Assembly: GCA_030141605.1 (NCBI GenBank)
Contig: JAQGDQ010002105.1
Location: 1-14,847, forward strand
Direction: 5' to 3'
Source of the DNA: Tubiluchus corallicola
Taxonomy: Eukaryota; Animalia; Priapulida
Length of the DNA stretch: 14,847 bases
The notes below the pieces were generated by a model, which worked only from the letters and a program-made list of their open reading frames with translations, was not told the DNA's origin and made no database searches. Each line of letters opens with the position of its first letter. Position 1 is the first letter of the stretch. The translations under genes and the position numbers were made by a program. Positions 1 to 14,847 of the stretch are shown in pieces.

Positions 1-686
1 CAGTAGTTTTTAGTTTGCACTGGATGCATTTGCCTTTAACAGTTGTGTGAATTTTTGAATTTTATTCTCATGCTGCGATGTTCTTTTATGCTTTTATAGT
101 TATGAATATCGATTTTTATGGCAAATAAAGATTATATTATATTATAATTATATAATACTAATGTGATTTTCAATATTATACTGCTAGTATTCAAACTATG
201 ATGCTTCTACCGTTGTAGTTGTTGCCTGCACTCTTGTAAGTGTTACGTTTCATCAGTTACATATTAGTGCCTGTTCAAGCCGTATGTTGCTATTACAGAA
301 AAACTACGTTCAAACTAAACCACTATCTTACAGAGCTGCAAAGTTAGGGAGCGATTACACAATATACAGTTTGGTGTAGCTAATCACTATTCGTCTGGAG
401 CTTCATTGAATAAAGACCTAGTTGTCTTGGCTACTACCCAGCTTGCTTCAGTGACTTACAGCACTTTGGATTAGAGAATTAGGGTACCGAGATCACGTTT
501 GCGCTGGTGTTTTGTTCACTATCGTCCATTGAACAGCATTCATGGGATTCCGTCTCTGTAGAAGCCATTTGAGGCTTTTTCTAGGAAAGACAATTAAAGC
601 TGTAAAAGTTTATGTTGCTCTATAAGATATTGCTCTCTCGCTTAACTGAATTAGCTTACTTTGGGAAATTAAAAAACTTTATAGTC

Positions 687-1001: not shown

Positions 1002-1129
1002 TTATTGCAGGTCTACTAGCACGTTGCATGGCATGGAGACATTCTAGGGTTTTTTAAACATTCAAGCTGCAATTTAGAACTGGCTGTCGTCGTCTACTAT
1101 GTAGATAATTGTACAATATTATGAACCGG

Positions 1130-1249
1130 AACTACGGCCATATCACGTTGAAAACACCGGTTCTCTTGGGATCACCGAAGTTAAGCAACGTAGAGCCTGG
1201 TTAGTACTTGGATGGGTGACCGCTTAGGAATACCAGGTGCTGTAGGCTT
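1130..1249 (+). pseudogene. 5S rRNA-like sequence forming the SINE head, with type 1 Pol III internal promoter
   Basis: 120 nt from ctacggccatatcacgttgaaaacaccgg to gaataccaggtgctgtaggctt. Box A region (agttaagcaacg, ~1179-1190) and box C region (tggatgggtgaccgc, ~1210-1224) are present. No oligo-T terminator follows, and ttggg replaces the usual gtccg. Confidence 0.9.
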
Positions 1250-1680
1250 GCGAGATGCCCACACTGTATCTCGACACTGGGCGGAGGAGCTGTACAAGCA
1301 GCCAATGGCTAGACGGCGGAGGAGGTCAAGTGACCCAACTGCCATGTGTAGAGGAGTAAACCTTCCAAATCAGGAGTGGAGCCCCGATGGCGGACCAGTG
1401 CAGCATGCTCACTGACTGCGGCAGCTCCTGCAGCCAACCTGGTGCCAAACGTATCGCTCCGCTTTCCTTTGGACTACACCAGGGAGGAAGAGAGGGGGTT
1501 CCTGTTGTCTGGGCAACTCAGGATCTCCATACACCTTGCCCGGGCGTGCGCCCTGGAGACGTTCAAGGATCGCACTGCTCAGCCACAGTCGACGCTGCAG
1601 CTCCATCAATGTGATCAATAACTGACTCTCTTGGCGCACACTCCATTGTCTTCCGAGACAGAAGGATGCCAACAACAACA
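1130..1680 (+). mobile_element. 5S rRNA-derived SINE (SINE3-type), copy 1, full length
   Basis: Full 5S head (1130-1249), GC-rich body shared with 14251-14744, (CAA)n tail at 1670-1680, and a perfect 12-bp direct repeat attatgaaccgg at 1118-1129 and 1681-1692. No T4 run inside the element. Confidence 0.92.
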
Positions 1681-2695
1681 ATTATGAACCGGGTATTCGA
1701 ATGTAAACACATCTTTTCAACGAGGCAAAAAACCAGAACTGTATAATGAACAAAACCACCCAGAGGAAGTACTGAACCCGGCGACCACTCAAGCTAAGCT
1801 TCGGTCACAGAGGAGCAGTTGACTTTTCATCTCGCCGTCGTGTGTGGAATGGTTTAACTGTGGATCACATTATACATCGAACACATAACAAACGTACATA
1901 GATTAAATTACCCAAAAACAATGTGCACTTGCTTTAGGGCATAACTTAAACTTTGGCCAATTACAATTACATTACTGTACCATTACATACACGTTTCCCT
2001 ACCTGTTAAATTTGGTCTTGCCCCTTTTACTGCCATCAGTCATGTGACCAGGTAATGGCCAGGTAGATATTACCTGGTATGCAATTCAAGCTGATATGAT
2101 GTGAATGTTGTGAATTGATTTCTGTTGCTTTTTTGCAAGTTATAATCGCCAAAACTCAGGGAGACCACATGTAAGTGTCTAAATATCTTTACTGAACTGC
2201 TTTATACAATTAGGGCTATTTTGCTGTTATTTTTTTTGTATAATTATAGACGAAAATCACGTAACCTAATTTAGTAATTTACCTGTTTTAAACTTGTGTT
2301 TTTCGCTAAAAACTTGTTGCTTATTACAGATAAAACATACAATTGCTGCATATTAAACATATTTGATGTTCTGGAGTTTAAATGTAGTACAGTGCCATTA
2401 CTTTTTTGCTAACTGTTTACAAATAAAAGAACTGTACGCACAAGAAAACAAGCACGCTTTCACGCACAGCAAGAGCACGCACGCACACAACACAGAGACA
2501 ACAAGTCTTATTAAAGCCTTTCACGCGCGCAGCAAGTGGGAGGAAGACAAAGTTTCTGTTATGCCAGCGGAAGCCTGTCAAGTTTCATTAGAAAACCTGA
2601 CAGATCCACCTGCCTGGATTAGATGATTAAAACCGCGATCTATGAAAATTCAGTTTAAAGATAGTGTCTCGAAAGCACGATTGATTACCTGTATT

Positions 2696-4667: not shown

Positions 4668-5042
4668 CAGGGCCTATTTCAGCCTACGCGAGGCCCGGGG
4701 AAGTGGGGGCGTGTGAGGCCCCATCGGGGGGGGGGGGGGGCGAGCGCTACCATGGTTGGCGCCCAGAACATTTTTGAACTGCTAGAACAAGAAGAGAAAA
4801 TATGGAGTTATACAGTTGTTAAAGGAAAGAACAATTGAAAGAAAAACTGCTTTATTCTCAAGACCAGTCCTTAATACTTGTGTCAATACTGGCAAACGGC
4901 GTGCGTGCGGCAAGAGAGAAGGAGGGAGAGAGAGGAGGCAGTATGTTCGCTTAAGGCAAAAAATATTACCTTGGCGCGAGGCCCCCTGGAGGGTGAGGTC
5001 CCGGGGAAGTATCCCCACTTCCCTCCCTTGAAATAGGCCCTG
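4668..5042. mobile_element. hAT-like MITE, 375 bp
   Basis: Perfect 14-bp TIRs (cagggcctatttca 4668-4681; tgaaataggccctg 5029-5042) and a perfect 8-bp TSD gctgccag (4660-4667 and 5043-5050). Subterminal gaggccc-like repeats at both ends and a G15 run at 4726-4740. Confidence 0.93.
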
Positions 5043-5247
5043 GCTGCCAGCGTGCATTAGTGTTGCATTTTACTTCGCATGGAACAAAAAAATAGTAAAA
5101 AAATTAATGTACTACTCACATTGCATGCTTGGAACATACTATCTCAGTGCATATGTCGATGTTTAGACTTTTTATAGCTAGAAACTGCCTGTGAGGACCG
5201 GAAATAAACTTCGATTACAGCTAAGAAAAATTTAGCTACATACAAAC

Positions 5248-5671
5248 CTTGCAGATAAGCAGTGAACTTGCACATGAATTGACCATACACCCAGAGTTTG
5301 TAAACAGAGGTGCCCACAGCCATGGGCATGCAGACAAGAGTTACTAAAAGATCGGCCAAAGACAGATTGACCACTAGATAGTTGGTGGCACTTCTTGCGT
5401 GATGGTTTTTCAGAACGACCAGAATGACCACGACGTTGGCAGCAAACGATATAAGAAACATGGGAACATACAAACTGATCAGCGTTATACTGCCTGGGTT
5501 GCGATAGGTAAACAGTCCATTTTCTAATTCCTCGTAGAACACATCGGCAATGGAGGATAAATTTAAATCATCTAGAGAAGAATTGACATCGGATAAAATT
5601 CCAGCAATGTCGATGTAGTCGCTTCCTCCGTAATCCGCGAAGGTTGGACCGTTCGTGTGATAGTCGCACAT
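5248..5671 (-). CDS. First coding exon of a rhodopsin-like (class A) neuropeptide GPCR, orexin/allatotropin/QRFP/CCK-receptor-like (N-terminus to mid TM3)
   Basis: Acidic N-terminus with NSS and NLS sequons. TM1 with N1.50 (SFAANVVV), TNY..VNLSLADLLVTLVCMP (TM2), WVYGQFMCK (ECL1 and the TM3 Cys), then YLQ. GPCR-like sequence ends at a donor CAAG|GTTTGT (phase 1; 141 codons + 1 nt). I did not find the downstream exons in this window. Confidence 0.93.
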
Positions 5672-6310
5672 AATGCATTCACGTTGCTGCCTGATTTAAT
5701 AGTATTGCACAAAATCAACGCGCTGGAGTGTTGAATCTGAAGCAGTCGTCTAAAACCTGAATTACATCGTGCACGCATGCGCAGGTGTCTTCACATTCGA
5801 TTCCGTAATAGTATTACAATTGTTTAATATCCAATTCAAGGCAGCAAAGTTAGTTTTTGCTGTGTCAACATTTCGGCAGTTTTAATATCAAGTTTAAGTG
5901 TGAAAAGGTGTTTTTAGCTACTTGGTTGCCAATTTCTGTTACGAAATTTCTCTGCTTGTTCAATAAAAATAGACCGAGCAGACAGTATTGCAAGCGCAAC
6001 GCTCAAATTTAAATACTCGGTAAGACGTAAACCAGTAATTCTTGGCATATTTTTTTACAACAGCACTCGTGTTGCCTGCCACGAAGTTTTCGACGAAGCC
6101 ACTGACTCAGTTTCAGGTTCATATCAACCCCGGACGTCAGTTACAAAACTTCTACGTCCAGCGGTAACGCGAAAATTAAATTTTCAATAGGTCTTAAACA
6201 AATGTTTCTTTTTTAACATTCAGTAGCAAAACTTGTCGTAGCCAATGCACCAAGTTTCCTATCGTAAGACACAATATTACTGTAGCAAGCGCCGTTGCAA
6301 GCGCTTATTT

Positions 6311-6598
6311 TCTGTACTGTACTATACTGTACTATTACCGGTACTGTACTGTACTGTACTATTATCGGTACTGTACTGTACTGTACTGTACTGTACTATT
6401 ATCGGTACTGTACTGTACTATACTGTACTATTATCGGTACTGTACTGTACTGTACTATTATCGGTACTGTACTGTACTATTATCGGTACTGTACTGTGCT
6501 GTACTGTACTATTATCGGTACTGTGCTGTACTGTACTATTATCGGTACTGTACTATACTGTACTATTATCGGCACTGTACTGTACTATTATCTGTACT
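6311..6598 (+). repeat. (CTGTA)n / ctattatcggta composite satellite
   Basis: Blocks of ctgta pentamers alternating with ctattatcggta. Explains ORFs 6245-6661 and 6295-6600. Confidence 0.95.
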
Positions 6599-7202
6599 GA
6601 AACGCTGGAACGGTTGCCAACTGAAACGAGAATTTCCGACCTGACAGCTGAGCTTGCTTAGCCTTTGAAACACTGAAATGTTTTGGGAAAACGAGTAACG
6701 TTAAACTTAATGGTTATTTACAAGCGCTGGCTAATTTTCCAGCACATTTAGCGATAAATTACATGTTACAAGTCTGTCGTTCTAACGCCATTAAATAGGC
6801 TGTCACGGCCTCGTAGTCCAGATCACGTCGACCTAATTGTGAGCAGTAATTATATTCATTTGATACGGTCTTAATTGATCATAATTAGCTTGAGCTTGCA
6901 ACAGCTGCGTTCATCCTAGTGCAAGTTGTAGTCAAGAGTGACTCAAATCAGTAAAATCTCATTTGCAGTTATTAATGTATTACGCTGGTAACTGATGAAT
7001 CTGGGCTTGTAAGACATAGCAGAGGGACTTGAGTTTATAAATGCATTGTTATTCTGCGAGTGTGTGATATGAATTCACTTTGGTTTAGTATTCATGACGC
7101 ACAGTTCACAATTCTGCATTTTTAAGCGGCGTTGTATCCGGAATGTGTTGCGTTAGCGCGTAAACAATCTAGTACGCATTAACAACGCAATAACATGCGG
7201 TG

Positions 7203-7655
7203 TTAGTGGTGTGGTGTGGGTTGTGTTTGTGTAGTATGGTGAGTGTGGTGTGGTGTGGTGCGTTGTGGGTATTGTGGTGTTGTGGTAAGGTGTGGTGTGG
7301 TGTGCAGGGGGTGGTGTTTGTGTAGTTTGGAGAGTGTGGTGTGGTGCGTTGTGGGTATTGTGGTGTTGTGGTAAGGTGTGGTGTGGTGTGCAGGGGTGGT
7401 GTTTGTGTAGTTTGGAGAGTGTGGTGTGGTGTGGTGCGTTGTGGGTATTGTGGTGTTGTGGTAAGGTGTGGTGTGGTGTGCAGGGGGTGGTGTTTGTGTA
7501 GTTTGGAGAGTGCGGTGTGGTGTGGTGGTAAGGTGTGGTTGGTGTGGTATGGTGTGGAGAGGGTGGTGTTTGTGTAGTTTGGTGAGTGTGGTGTGGTGTG
7601 GTGTGTTGTGGGTACTGCGGTGTTGTGTTAATGTGTGGAGGGGTGGTGTGATGTG
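7203..7655 (+). repeat. (GTGTG)n-based GT-rich satellite with an ~86-90 bp higher-order unit
   Basis: gcgttgtgggtattg recurs at 7260, 7346 and 7436. Confidence 0.95.
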
Positions 7656-7703
7656 AAACAGATCAATGTTTCGCCAAGCTATTAAAAATTGCGTATCACT
7701 GAT

Positions 7704-8360
7704 GAGGTCGTGACCGCAGGTAGAGGTTGTGACCACAGATAGAGATTAGGTAGAGGTTGTGACCACAGGTAGAGATTGTGACCACAGGTAGAGATTAGGT
7801 AGAGGTTGTGACCACAGGTAGAGATTAGGTAGAGATTGTGACCACAGGTAGAGATTAGGTAGAGGTTGTGACCACAGGTAGAGATTAGGTAGAGATTGTG
7901 ACCACAGGTGGATATCAGGTAGAGGTTGTGACTACAGGTAGAGATCAGGTAGAGGTCGTGACTGCAGGTAGAGGTTGTGACCGCAGGTAGAGGTTGTGAC
8001 CACAGGTAGAGATTAGGTAGAGGTTGTGACCACAGGTAGAGATTAGGTAGAGGTTGTGACCACAGGTAGAGATTAGGTAGAGATTGTGACCACAGGTGGA
8101 TATCAGGTAGAGGTTGTGACTACAGGTAGAGATCAGGTAGAGGTTGTGACCACAGGTGGATATCAGGTAGAGGTTGTGACTACAGGTAGAGATCAGGTAG
8201 AGGTTGTGACCACAGGTAGAGATCAGGTAGAGGTTGTGACCACAGGTAGAGATTAGGTAGAGGTTGTGACCACAGGTAGAGATTAGGTAGAGGTTGTGAC
8301 CACAGGTAGAGATTAGGTAGAGGTTGTGACCACAGGTAGAGATTAGGTAGAGGTTGTGAC
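7704..8360 (+). repeat. 30-bp minisatellite built from 19-bp and 11-bp subunits
   Basis: Unit aggtagaggttgtgaccac+aggtagagatt, about 20 copies, with occasional lone 19-mers. Explains the STCGHNLYLI-repeat ORF. Confidence 0.97.
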
Positions 8361-8391
8361 GCATTACGTACACACTTTCACCTGTTTAAAT

Positions 8392-8651
8392 ATAAACTGT
8401 TGTATACGCATTACGCAATGCGGATCACGCACCACGCGCACATGGAGTCGTACCTTAACATAAAATGCGTGCTCACGACGACATAAAATAGTGAGAGAGA
8501 AATTTAAAGCCAACAAGGATAAACTGTTGTATACGCATTACGCATTGCGGATCACGCACCACGCGCACATAGAGTCGTACCTTAACATAAAATGCGTGCT
8601 CACGACGACATAAAATAGTGAGAGAGAAATTTAAGATCAACAAGGATAAAC
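8392..8651 (+). repeat. 127-bp tandem duplication
   Basis: Copies at 8392-8518 and 8519-8645 with only a few substitutions; ataaac occurs at 8392, 8519 and 8646. Confidence 0.95.
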
Positions 8652-9479: not shown

Positions 9480-10650
9480 TTAAGAATGGTGCTGAGATTG
9501 GTCAATGAATTGAAAGAACAATTCAGCTTACTCCGGTTAGACCACTTACAGCATGGGGGCGACAAATTCTGGAGCATGTCTTTCATACCCAGACCTGAGC
9601 ATTAGCATCACCACCAATTTTCGTTGGAGTGGACATTACCAGAACTTTGCTACTTGTGCAAAAAGGGCACTCAACGTTGTTCGCGAGACGTTCCACCCGT
9701 GTCATCAACAGGTTAAGGATATGAAGCCCTGGTCAGATCCAGACTAGAACATGGTATCGAAGCCAGGAATCCGTCATCAACAGGTGAAGGAAAGAGCATA
9801 TGAAGCCCTGGTCAGATCCAAACTAGAACACGGTATCGAAGGCAGGAATCCGTCATCAACAGGTGAAGAAAAGAGCATACGAAGCCCTGGTCAGATCCAG
9901 CCTAGAACATCGTGTCGAAGCCAGGAATCCGTCATCAACAGGTGAAGGAAAGAGCATACGAAGCCCTGGTCAGATCCAGACTAGAACATGGTATCGAAGG
10001 CAGGAATCCGTCATCAACAGGTTAAGGAAAGAGCATATGAAGCCCTGGTCAGATCCAGACTAGAACATGGTATCGAAGCCAGGAATCCGTCATCAACAGG
10101 TGAAGGAAAGAGCATACGAAGCCCTGGTCAGATCCAGACTAGAACATCGTATCGAAGGCAGGAATCCGTCATCAACAGGTGAAGGAAAGAGCATACGAAG
10201 CCCTGGTCAAATCCAGCCTAGAACATCGTGTCGAAGCCAGGAATCCGTCATCAACAGGTGAAGGAAAGAGCATATGAAGCCCTGGTCAGATCCAGACTAG
10301 AACATGGTATCGAAGCCAGGAATCCGTCATCAACAGGTGAAGGAAAGAGCATATGAAGCCCTGGTCAGAGCCAAACTAGAACATGGTATCGAAGCCAGGA
10401 ATCCGTACACAGATACTGACACCAAGGGCGTAGAGCGAGTTCAGTGGAATGCAAAACGACTTGCAGGCAGTGAATTATTCCTAAAATGCTGAAGTGTTTA
10501 AGATGGTCTCTGAATTTTGGGTGGGAAATGTTAGAAATTCGACAAAAACCATGCTAAACACCTTTCATGACATATATATTGCATCACAGCATAGGCATCA
10601 GTTTATCAACTCATATTAATCTGCTAAAACAATTTTTGCCTAGGGTATCC
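9480..10650 (+). mobile_element. Decayed non-LTR retrotransposon ORF2 fragment (region C-terminal to RT, CR1/L2-group-like)
   Basis: Frameshifted translation ...YPDLSISITTNFRWSGH...AKRALNVVR...VKERAYEALVRSKLEH...NPYT...VERVQWNAKR...GWEMLEIRQK parallels the typical YLGV.I...L.W..H...KA...L....VKE.AY..LVRP.LEY...WDPY...LEKVQRRAAR...LGW..LE.RR pattern. Boundaries are approximate. Confidence 0.8.
9701..10406 (+). repeat. 79-bp tandem array (9 copies) derived from LINE ORF2
   Basis: ccgtcatcaac at 9771, 9850, 9929, 10008, 10087, 10166, 10245 and 10324. The first copy (from 9701) carries a 7-nt deletion. Confidence 0.97.
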
Positions 10651-10722
10651 AACTTCCTAGAGCCTGCCCTCATTGTAAAAATATTTTGCACAACAGACAT
10701 TTTTTAAATTGCTTTCGTTGCT

Positions 10723-10946
10723 ATCATCACCATCACCGTCATCATCATTATCGTCACCATCATCGTCATCATTATCGTCATGATCATCATCACCATCGTC
10801 ATCATTATCATCATCACTATCATCACCATCATCATCACCGTCATCGTCACCATCATCACCATCACCGTCATCATCATCACCGTCACCATCATCATCATCA
10901 TCATCGTTGTCATCATCATCATCATCATCATCATCACCGTCATCAC
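10723..10946 (+). repeat. Degenerate (CAT)n trinucleotide microsatellite
   Basis: cat/cac/cgt triplets; produces the poly-His, poly-Asp, poly-Met and poly-Ile ORFs. Confidence 0.97.
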
Positions 10947-12189
10947 AATAAGTGATGAGTATGCTGTTCATGTAACAATGCTACTGTGTTAGAATACAGC
11001 CCCATCAACGATGTACAGTGCAGATGCCTACTGCATCAGCTCCCATCAGACAAAACTTGCTTTTCTCTTCGTCAAGTCTGTTGTATGATAGGTTGTCATA
11101 AGCCACCAAGAACACCAATCAACTTCAAGCATGATGGACGTTTGTTATATCAGTAATGAACAGACCTCGTCACAGCTTACTTAACGCTTCATAATTGGCC
11201 AAATTTAATGAGAAATTTATTAATGATAAATCCCCCCGTCCTTCAACAAAATAGAAAAGCAAAAGCACGAAAGGAGATTATTGTTTAGCAGTTTGTTTGA
11301 GGAAAATACAAGGCATAGTTAAAGTTTATTATGACTTCTTTATTCTATGGTCCAAACATTTATACACATAGTTGTATGTACACTTATACAAGGAGTAATA
11401 AAACACAGAAAAGACTTAAGCAAATTACGCACTTTTGTTAAAGACATCAAGACATCATTACAGGCTCAGATTATGTGGCACTGTCATTAATGAGATCAAA
11501 CTAGCTTTTTCTAGAGCAAAAAAGAGAGAATGCTTTCTCACAAACTCTACTTACTTAGACATCGGCAGTACCTGTGCAGTGACCAAGAAATACCATTATG
11601 ACAGAAACTCATTAGTCACAATTATCAAAAATACTTCATACATTATGAAAAAGTACAGAACTGTCAGCAAACAGAATCATTATGCGAAAGCTGCACTATA
11701 CACACAAAAACTAGAAAAACATTAATCTTAGAAATAATAACATTAAAATCATTTCCAAAATCTTTTCCAGCAAACAATAAAAACTAAAGTTAAGAAATCA
11801 ACAAATAAAGTAGTTGTCTATAAAAGCAGAAATTTGGTTATTACATTAAAAAACACTAGTTATACGTGCAATTTTAAAGTGCTCAGTTATTTTTAACAGT
11901 GTGAATGCAAAACAAAAATTAAAGCCACTGCAACTTTTGTAAAAGAACAGTTATTATTTATGACAAAATTCTTTGGTTATTAATATATCTTAGCCTCGAT
12001 GAACCAAAATTAAACAATCATATGGTTTACTAATTCTATCTTACAACAGTTAAGATTTGCTGTTGACTTGTTGCCAGGTAACTAGCTCATTAATCAATTA
12101 ACTGGACAAGCATTGGGTAGAGATAGTCGTCAATTACAAGGCCTCTTTCCAGGATATGGATACGAACAAATATACATGATTTGGCTAGA

Positions 12190-13098
12190 AGATTATTTTA
12201 CCAAGACAACATAAGGTAACATAAGGTAAGGCAGATTACTTTGTCAAGACAACATAAGGTAACACAAGGTAAGGTAGATTACTTTGCCAAAACAACATAA
12301 GGTAACATAAGGTAAGGTAGATTACTTTGCCAAAAAAACATAAGGTAACATAAGGTAAGGTAGATTACTTTGCCAAGACAACATAAGGTAACATAAGGTA
12401 AGGTAGATTACTTTGCCAAGACAACATAAGGTAACATAAGGTAAGGTAGATTACTTTGCCAAGACAACATAAGGTAACATAAGGTAAGGTAGATTACTTT
12501 GCCAAAACAACATAAGGTAACATAAGGTAAGGTAGATTACTTTGCCAAAACAACATAAGGTAAGGTAGATTACTTTGCCAAAACAACATAAGGTAACATA
12601 AGGTAAGGTAGATTACTTTGCCAAAACAACATAAGGTAACATAAGGTAAGGTAGATTACTTTGCCAAAACAACATAAGGTAAGGTACCAAGACAACATAA
12701 GGTAACGGTGGTAGATTACTTTCCAAGACAACATAAGGTAACAAAGGTAAGGTAGATTACTTTGCTAAAACAACATAAGGTAAGGTAGATTACTTTCCAA
12801 GACAACATAAGGTAACAAAGGTAAGGTAGATTACTTTGCCAAAACAACATAAGGTAACGTAGATTACTTTGCCAAAACAACATAAGGTAACATAAGGTAA
12901 GGTAGATTACTTTGCCAAAACAACATAAGGTAACATAAGGTAAGGTAGATTACTTTGCCAAAACAACATAAGGTAACATAAGGTAAGGTAGATTACTTTG
13001 CCAAAACAACATAAGGTAAGGTAGATTACTTTGCCAAAACAACATAAGGTAAGGTAGATTACTTTGCCAAAACAACATAAGGTAACATAAGGTAAGGT
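12190..13098 (+). repeat. 43-bp minisatellite with 33-bp deletion variants
   Basis: Unit caaaacaacataaggtaacataaggtaaggtagattactttgc (attacttt at 12321 and 12364), about 22 copies, some lacking one aacataaggt. Confidence 0.97.
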
Positions 13099-13796: not shown

Positions 13797-14250
13797 CTGC
13801 AAAAATGGAATTTTGGCTCATCATTCTTTATGGATTCATTTGCTAAGTTTCAATCTAACCTTTTCAGCTAACCGACTCAAATATTTTAAACAAATGCGCC
13901 CCCCGTGGTAACAACTGTAACCAAAAATGAGTCTTAACTGTCATTAAAAATAAGATTATGCTCATCTCATCTCTACGTAGGCACGTTAAATCACTTTTGT
14001 AATACTTCTTTTATAAGATTTAACTATACACATAAACTAGCAGCACATGCCCAATCTAGTAAAAAAAATTGTATAGTAGAATGCGATAATGACAAAGTGT
14101 CTTGAAAATGTGTTCAGATCATTAACAAACTTTATTTTATCTGCAATTGGCATGGTTGACACTACCATCATTTGTTACAATGAACATTGCAGTAGCACTC
14201 AGAATACTTTTTTCACCTGCCCAATCTTTTTGTTCTTTCTACATATTTAC

Positions 14251-14744
14251 GACTATGGCCAAATCACGTTGAAAACACCAGTTCTCGTCCGATTACAGAA
14301 GCTAAACAACGTAGAGTCTGGTCAGTACTTGGATGGGTGACCATAGGAGGAGGACATCGGAAGAGCTGCACAAGCATCCAATGGGCGGAGGAGGTCAAGT
14401 GACCCAACGGCCATGTGTGGAGGAGTAAACCTCCCAAATCAGGAGTGGAGCCCCGAAGGCGGACCAGTGCATCATGCTCACTGACTCCTGCAGCCAACCT
14501 GGTGCCAAACGTATCGCTCCGCTTTCGTTTGGACTACACCAGGGAGAAAGAGAGGGGGTTCCTGTTGTCTGGGCAATTCAAGATCTCCATACACTTTGCC
14601 CAGGCGTGCGCCCTGGAGACGTTCAAGGATCGGACTGCTCAGCCACAGTCGACGTTGCAGCTCCATCAATGTGATCAATAACTGACTCTCTTGGCGCACA
14701 CTCCATTGTCTTCCGAAACAGAAGGATGCCAACCAACCAACAAT
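14251..14744 (+). mobile_element. 5S rRNA-derived SINE, copy 2 (shorter head)
   Basis: 5S positions 1-92 at 14251-14342, a different linker, then a body matching copy 1 (9 substitutions in the last 246 nt). Tail ccaaccaaccaacaa; direct repeat atatttacg at 14243-14251 and 14745-14753. Confidence 0.92.
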
Positions 14745-14847
14745 ATATTTACGTATTTTTGTTATCGAAATCCCCCAGACATTTATCAGAGCTTCCTTTT
14801 AAAGAAATTTCTCGTTCTTTTGGAAAATGTGACCTTTGTACATCGCA

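What the first reader, a model, noticed from the sequence alone, without database searches (positions are those of the whole stretch)
1118..1692. A 5S rRNA-headed SINE family carrying a complete 5S sequence, with two independent TSD-flanked insertions 13 kb apart
Seen: a complete 120-nt 5S sequence without its T-run terminator, fused to a ~430-nt GC-rich body and a (CAA)n tail, inside a 12-bp TSD. A second copy at 14251-14744 has an unrelated 9-bp TSD, so these are separate insertions rather than a segmental duplication. The element contains no TTTT in an AT-rich genome; the first T4 is at 1714-1717. Known: most SINEs have tRNA heads and 5S-derived SINE3 families are comparatively rare. Inference: an abundant, fairly young Pol III retroposon family that may be undescribed in this lineage and that rRNA predictors would mis-annotate as 5S genes.
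Basis: partly seen in the sequence, partly recalled or inferred. Interest (0 to 1): 0.8.

Follow-up and report, generated by a model that had tools for sequence, protein, structure and literature searches.

The report
5S-headed SINE built on RTE ends
This is a short, highly repeated parasitic DNA element of an invertebrate animal that joins a whole 5S ribosomal RNA sequence to the front and back pieces of an RTE-type retrotransposon, which likely copies it; the design is already known from fish, reptiles, birds and moths.

Summary
1130-1248 is a full-length 5S match inside a 12-bp duplication. Copy 2 has its own 9-bp duplication, but its 5S stops after box C. Contigs of two samples pile up on the element, thousands-fold above the flanks, with many unlike flanks at fixed ends.

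1349-1562 matches the 5' UTR, and 1563-1680 the last 20 codons, 3' UTR and tail, of single-ORF endonuclease/RT LINEs found in metagenomes. One contig continues upstream of 14623 into the expected cysteine motif of such an ORF.

This is a SINE3 with a bipartite RTE body, the design of CoeSINE5, HaSE3, SINE-1_Pmo and GymnSINE. The scan has noted the design in other genomes. Pol III transcription and mobilisation by RTE protein are inferred. I found no description of this family in nine completed paper searches, but Repbase, Dfam and SINEBase could not be searched. Verdict: new member of a known kind.

The parts
1118..1129 (+). 5' target-site duplication of copy 1 (12 bp, starts with A)
   Evidence: exact repeat of 1681-1692
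1130..1249 (+). Full-length 5S rRNA-derived head; box A, intermediate element and box C lie at about 1179-1221; only TT where a gene has its T-run
   Evidence: Rfam RF00001 104.5 bits, model 1-120; helix I forms in the fold; box positions from recalled 5S numbering, sequence printed
1250..1348 (+). Linker of unassigned origin; begins with a small hairpin at 1251-1274
   Evidence: no significant match to the upstream UTRs of L028 or L046 (42-663 of 1000 shuffles score as well); hairpin
1349..1562 (+). Internal segment of an RTE-type LINE 5' UTR
   Evidence: L046: 148 of 197 identical over 1367-1559; L028: 107 of 135 over 1428-1562; nhmmer extends the match to 1349, E 2.4e-25
1563..1625 (+). Last 20 codons and stop of the LINE ORF (S-R-I-x-L-L-S-H-x-R-x-C motif)
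   Evidence: translation and tblastn to residues 1022-1037 of P0005; motif at the end of 77 of 120 relatives; loose end at the equivalent place 14623
1626..1670 (+). LINE 3' UTR with a predicted stem-loop (1631-1672)
   Evidence: matches sequence behind the stop in L124, L057, L073, L028; fold z -2.04, 6 of 200 shuffles
1671..1680 (+). Short (CAA)n tail
   Evidence: L124 ends the same way
1681..1692 (+). 3' target-site duplication of copy 1
1714..1717 (+). First T4 in the flank; predicted Pol III stop for copy 1
   Evidence: position; function inferred
14243..14251 (+). 5' target-site duplication of copy 2 (9 bp, starts with A)
   Evidence: exact repeat of 14745-14753
14252..14342 (+). Head of copy 2: 5S up to the end of box C only, 79 of 91 identical to copy 1
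   Evidence: most other copies continue with the 5S 3' end (loose end at 14342)
14343..14744 (+). Shortened linker, RTE 5' UTR segment, ORF end (14623-14685), 3' UTR and tail of copy 2
   Evidence: 96 of 101 and 240 of 249 identical to copy 1
14745..14753 (+). 3' target-site duplication of copy 2

Best explanation
The element is a high-copy SINE made of a whole 5S rRNA sequence joined to a 5' UTR segment and the 3' end of an RTE-type LINE, and it is likely transcribed by RNA polymerase III and likely copied by that LINE's protein. Shown: the three-part anatomy, two insertions with different duplications, and many further copies with fixed ends. Inferred steps: (1) an RTE LINE lost its interior, joining its 5' UTR to the ORF's last 20 codons at 1562/1563; (2) a template switch or recombination put 5S in front, minus its T-run; (3) TFIIIA/TFIIIC would bind box A, IE and box C, and Pol III would read through the body to the first flanking T4 (about 585 nt for copy 1); (4) the RTE endonuclease/RT would bind the 3' stem-loop and prime reverse transcription on the (CAA)n tail at an A/T-rich nick, giving 9-12-bp duplications that start with A.
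For: 5S head. Two unrelated duplications of 12 and 9 bp starting with A; PMC6007223 (abstract and part 2 of Results read) gives 7-15 bp for RTE LINEs and an A start for RTE SINEs ending in (CAA)n. Summed contig depth 67,000-244,000 over 1159-1668 against 6-7 on unique flanks in X1, and 49,000-134,000 against 15-17 in X3; 1.2-2.3 million against 159-165 in X2. Unlike flanks at fixed ends: 59+32 contigs at 1131/1132 and 36+38 at 1673/1681 in X1, agreement 0.41-0.43. UTR matches to L046 and L028 score 114 and 111 bits, against at most 34.6 in 50 shuffles; these lie over 3 kb upstream of the motif used to fetch the loci. Both LINEs carry one ORF of about 1050 aa with endonuclease and RT domains. 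A contig in X3 joins at 14623 with 28 letters that read in frame as C-x2-C-x3-C-x before S-R-I-G-L (translated by eye). By eye, 1431-1531 shares six short words, in order and at like spacing, with the SINE2_Gav / RTE-11_AMi 5' UTR alignment in the supplement of PMC5786205.
Against: No transcript was seen. The partner LINE of this genome rests on one contig end of 28 letters; the full LINEs compared are 75-79% identical relatives from other samples. Only 2 of the 4 long-ORF loci (L028, L046; not L002, L023) match in the UTR. The tail peptide match in the 124 loci is partly by construction. RTE clade was assigned by architecture and by-eye UTR likeness, not by a tree. 1250-1348 has no assigned origin. 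No empty-site joint was listed (tables cut: 27 and 15 rows hidden). Copy 1 lacks the T stretch about 10 nt upstream of the duplication that PMC6007223 describes; copy 2 has one.
Confidence: 0.9

Rival explanations
1. The family is mainly a headless bipartite RTE derivative made by Pol II; 5S-headed copies are occasional template-switch chimeras, not a master unit.
For: Such derivatives are common for RTE (PMC5786205). Summed depth over the body is higher than over the head. The two heads differ more than the two bodies: 12 of 91 against 14 of 350, Fisher p 0.002, tested after the fact.
Against: Both window copies have the head. Depth over the 5S/linker junction bin 1210-1260 is 118,509 in X1 and 64,719 in X3, as high as over the head itself. 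The commonest 5' loose ends sit at 5S +1/+2, and none of the best-supported rows shown sits at the start of the body with an unlike flank (423 rows hidden).
Confidence: 0.05
2. These are dispersed 5S rRNA genes or simple 5S retropseudogenes, with the body as spacer or chance flank.
For: Copy 1 matches the whole 5S model and folds into helix I.
Against: There is no T-run after +120. The same 430-nt body follows in both copies and is LINE-derived. The duplications enclose head plus body. Flanks are unlike at both ends, with no tandem unit in the window.
Confidence: 0.02
3. The element is a SINE3, but it is now moved by a LINE of another clade, or the LINEs matched are not RTE.
For: No RT tree with named RTE references was built; the PDB holds only L1 and R2 relatives.
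Against: The extreme 3' end and tail match the same LINE group. L028 positions 586-637 agree at 45 of 52 letters, by eye, with the AviRTE-derived part of ManaSINE1.
Confidence: 0.03

Closest known systems
CoeSINE5 (coelacanth), SINE-1_Pmo (python), HaSE3 (moth): 5S head plus RTE 5' and 3' parts (PMC5786205; parts 1-4 of 5 of the text, part 1 of the supplement and searched passages read)
   Same: Same three-part design and the same inferred dependence on an RTE LINE
   Different: They are 225-349 nt against about 550. The CoeSINE5 head matches 5S only over about 16-88, and the HaSE3 head ends near box C (by eye). Their RTE segments share none of the window words searched. Here the tail includes 20 codons of the ORF.
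GymnSINE (antbirds), mobilised by AviRTE (PMC4844689; passages and supplement passages read)
   Same: 5S head running close to the 5S 3' end, bipartite RTE tail; the LINE L028 resembles AviRTE in its UTR
   Different: Different UTR segment and 3' end (window words absent from its supplements except in unrelated RT sequence); bird host
SINE2_Gav (crocodilians) and RTE-11_AMi (PMC5786205 supplement)
   Same: Carries what looks by eye like the same RTE 5' UTR segment (window 1431-1531)
   Different: tRNA head, 271 nt, unrelated 3' end; the likeness was not scored
Ante (tusk shell Antalis entalis; PMC5804259, section 5 and supplement passage read)
   Same: A 5S-headed SINE in a non-arthropod invertebrate, so that host type is not new
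   Different: Head ends near box C; CORE and V body, poly(A) tail, no RTE words found
Ajax (ribbon worms) and Cassandra TRIMs (PMC10886601, passages read)
   Same: Borrowed 5S promoter in a non-autonomous retroelement of an invertebrate
   Different: LTR elements with promoter-only 5S and 5-bp duplications; the element here has no LTR and 9-12-bp duplications
Ped-1 (springhare)
   Same: Listed as 5S-derived (PMC10946416, passage) and as bipartite (PMC5786205)
   Different: Mammalian; its sequence was not seen

Membership tests
SINE3 | Head derived from 5S rRNA with box A, IE, box C | tested here: met
SINE3 | Short, non-coding, composite | tested here: met
   about 550 nt; longest stop-to-stop frame over copy 1 is 90 aa, and none spans the element
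SINE3 | Interspersed multi-copy family with uniform structure | tested here: met
   depth ratios and unlike flanks at fixed ends in X1, X2, X3; summed depth is not a copy number
SINE3 | Variable-length target-site duplications | tested here: met
   2 of 2 copies available
SINE3 | Transcription by RNA polymerase III | not testable with these tools
   no RNA data could be laid; inferred from the promoter boxes
RTE-mobilised bipartite SINE | Segment of LINE 5' UTR in the body | tested here: met
   L046, L028
RTE-mobilised bipartite SINE | 3' end shared with the LINE, microsatellite tail | tested here: met
   14 of 124 loci match 1546-1680 by nhmmer; L124, L073, L057 match behind the stop
RTE-mobilised bipartite SINE | The LINEs belong to the RTE clade | tested here: inconclusive
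   single long endonuclease+RT ORF and short 3' UTR and by-eye UTR likeness to AviRTE fit; no RT tree with named references
RTE-mobilised bipartite SINE | Partner LINE present in the same genome | tested here: inconclusive
   one contig end of 28 letters at 14623 in X3
5S rRNA gene | T-run terminator right after +120; tandem array | tested here: not met
Ajax/Cassandra TRIM | 5S inside an LTR; 5-bp duplication | tested here: not met
   element starts at 5S +1, ends in a LINE tail, has 9-12-bp duplications
A catalogued Repbase/Dfam/SINEBase family | Full-length match to a deposited consensus | not testable with these tools
   databases not held; word searches in four papers' supplements gave no full match

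The most novel reading that the evidence does not exclude
The whole 5S fold is kept because it does more than promote transcription: the SINE RNA is packaged like 5S rRNA (TFIIIA, uL5/uL18) and delivered to ribosomes, where it captures newly made RTE protein, as Alu uses SRP9/14. Most copies retain the full 5S with helix I, whereas several known SINE3 heads stop at box C.
Probability: 0.1. Interest if true: 0.65.

Novelty: new member of a known kind. Interest (0 to 1): 0.3.

Why it matters
It adds an abundant SINE3 from an invertebrate that is likely not an arthropod, where few are reported. PMC7245038 lists vertebrates and some insects; PMC5804259 adds one mollusc; PMC10946416 puts 5S SINEs at 2.3% of the first SINEBase release. 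Its copies pass Rfam's 5S threshold, so they would inflate 5S gene counts. The LINE junction is resolved to the base (1562/1563). What looks like the same UTR segment was captured by a crocodilian tRNA SINE, which points to a candidate cis element for RTE mobilisation. None of this changes the known model of SINE origin.

Tried and rejected

RNA: no RNA holder was listed, and run X6 laid nothing; neither is evidence on expression. Run X5 (same species label, next to none of the words) covered only the 5S part and a neighbouring repeat, not the body; X3 gave no cover on the flanks of copy 2. Both blanks are left uninterpreted. No empty-site joint appeared among the rows shown.

DNA patterns from the element found nothing in viral contigs, in metagenomes or in prokaryote genomes. 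Protein searches with the tail peptide failed: none, and one chance hit to a repeat protein, P0004. An origin for 1250-1348 in the upstream UTRs of L028/L046 was not significant. No Rfam family, ribozymes included, was found in L002, L023, L028 or L046 or in the body. The body as a whole folds only slightly better than shuffles (z -1.81), and 1428-1570 not at all (z 0.72). The snoU25 match is below threshold; no tRNA; the sigma-70 scan is irrelevant here. The peptide-word paper search returned surname noise.

Paper searches behind 'not found described'. Supplements were searched by words only; long lines are cut or wrapped and one figure file gave no text, so matches may be missed.

Full report
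Observation. Rfam matches 1130-1248 to the whole 5S model (104.5 bits) and 14254-14371 more weakly (56.6 bits). Copy 1 lies between exact 12-bp repeats (1118-1129, 1681-1692), copy 2 between unrelated exact 9-bp repeats (14243-14251, 14745-14753). The bodies agree at 96 of 101 and 240 of 249 letters, the heads at 79 of 91. Copy 2's head ends right after box C and lacks about 50 nt. The element has no T4, but half of own-composition shuffles lack one too (2449 of 5000), so that point carries little weight.

Abundance. No host genome is held. Four of six listed runs hold the stretch or part of it, from two studies; one sample may be the window's own source. Summed contig depth over the element is thousands of times that of the unique flanks in X1, X3 and X2. 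The tool warns that this sum is no copy number, because overlapping contigs are counted repeatedly. My inference is an order of 10^3-10^4 copies. Firmer evidence is the set of contigs that leave the element into unlike sequence at fixed places: 91 at 1131/1132 and 74 at 1673/1681 in X1, and 59 at 14733 in X2. Of 10,342 X2 contigs laid on the copy 2 stretch, 6,139 are at least 95% alike, which fits a fairly young family. X3, a second sample, carries both junctions of copy 1. Most copies continue past box C into the 5S 3' end (loose end at 14342; depth falls to 7,745 in the copy 2 junction bin, against 187,586 and 583,841 beside it), so the full head is the family norm.

Origin of the body. The frame from 1563 reads S-R-I-x-L-L-S-H-x-R-x-C and stops at 1623-1625. 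One X3 contig joins at the equivalent place 14623 with 28 other letters that read, by eye and in frame, C-x2-C-x3-C-x: the end of a longer ORF. A pattern for that motif fetched 120 metagenome loci and 4 loci from prokaryote assemblies. Four of the 124 have open frames above 1000 aa, all four with endonuclease and RT domains. Two of these four match the element's middle in their 5' UTRs, over 3 kb from the motif: L046, 148 of 197 letters over 1367-1559, and L028, 107 of 135 over 1428-1562. They score 114 and 111 bits, against at most 34.6 in 50 shuffles. Fourteen of the 124 loci match the 3' end by nhmmer; that is partly by construction, but L124, L073 and L057 also match behind the stop codon, L124 through the (CAA)n tail. 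Among the best 120 relatives of the L028 protein, fetched by whole-protein similarity, 77 end in the S-R-I-G-L-x-S-H motif; the few with a species name are from a snail, amphioxus, a sea star and a prawn. The body is therefore a LINE 5' UTR segment fused at 1562/1563 to a LINE 3' end. 1250-1348 remains unassigned.

Which LINE. One long ORF, a 3' UTR of about 55 nt and a microsatellite tail fit RTE (clade traits from established knowledge and PMC4844689). By eye, L028 586-637 agrees at 45 of 52 letters with the AviRTE-derived part of ManaSINE1, and window 1431-1531 shares six ordered words with the SINE2_Gav / RTE-11_AMi 5' UTR alignment. No tree was built, so RTE is very likely rather than formally shown. 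Both duplications start with A and fall in the 7-15-bp range that PMC6007223 gives for RTE, where (CAA)n-ending SINEs favour A.

Mechanism. Shown: anatomy, separate insertions, abundance. Inferred: internal deletion of an RTE LINE; capture of 5S without its terminator; Pol III transcription from the internal promoter to a flanking T4; recognition of the 3' stem-loop (z -2.04) by the RTE protein; and target-primed reverse transcription. This follows the model in PMC5786205. The captured UTR part is internal, starting about 500 nt into L046, in line with that paper's remark that SINEs tend to omit the LINE's extreme 5' end, where a ribozyme may sit; I found no Rfam ribozyme in the LINEs.

Host. 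An exon on the minus strand at about 5247-5670 encodes the start of a rhodopsin-family receptor whose only named hit is a ribbon worm QRFP-like receptor at 46%. That shows an animal, likely an invertebrate, and no more. Earlier notes on this genome say the same (unchecked). Copy 1 lies antisense, downstream of that exon's splice donor, likely in an intron; copy 2 lies about 8.6 kb upstream.

Comparison and novelty. 5S head plus bipartite RTE is described for CoeSINE5, HaSE3 and SINE-1_Pmo (PMC5786205) and GymnSINE (PMC4844689). A 5S SINE in a mollusc is known (Ante, PMC5804259). The scan has recorded similar designs in other genomes, though no look-alike of this sequence. The family differs in its length, its complete head, the UTR segment used and the ORF remnant in the tail. 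It works like those SINEs and meets every SINE3 feature I could test. Whether it is already catalogued could not be checked.

Unexplained. Copy 2's head differs from copy 1's more than its body does (12 of 91 against 14 of 350, p 0.002, after the fact). It also ends where the Ante and HaSE3 heads end (by eye). It may be a chimera with an older head, or simply damaged.

Verdict. A real feature and a new member of a known kind; interest 0.3.

Noticed in passing
window 4668-5042: MITE-like element: 14-bp terminal inverted repeats inside an exact 8-bp duplication, as hAT-type transposons make (family trait recalled).
   Followed up: partly
window about 5247-5670, minus strand: First coding exon of a rhodopsin-family peptide receptor (QRFP/orexin-like); no further exon found in the window by tblastn.
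   Followed up: partly
window 1559-1561 and 14621: Both samples hold a longer variant of the SINE with about 13 extra letters just before the UTR/ORF junction, similar to the LINE UTRs at that place; both window copies lack them.
   Followed up: partly
window 14634-14733 (and 1574-1675): Some contigs return from the tail to the start of the ORF remnant: copies with a tandemly doubled 3' end, at depths of 300-1400 against 160 for single copy.
   Followed up: no
window 1131/1132: Two kinds of 5' start among copies (loose ends at 1131 and at 1132); one would pair fully in 5S helix I, suggesting two subfamilies.
   Followed up: no
window 1975-2200: A second, medium-copy repeat, also seen at 80-95% likeness in run X5, which showed no cover of the SINE body.
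   Followed up: no
window 7-137 and 2749-2867: Two diverged copies, in opposite orientation, of an AT-rich sequence ending in (ATT)n-like repeats, possibly a LINE 3' tail.
   Followed up: no
window 6282-6620, 7199-7694, 7658-8423, 9637-10489, 10691-10979, 12132-13098: Six minisatellite or simple-repeat arrays (units of about 30, 79 and 43/33 nt among them).
   Followed up: no
L121-L124: Animal-type LINE ORF ends on contigs of three prokaryote assemblies, likely host DNA contamination.
   Followed up: no
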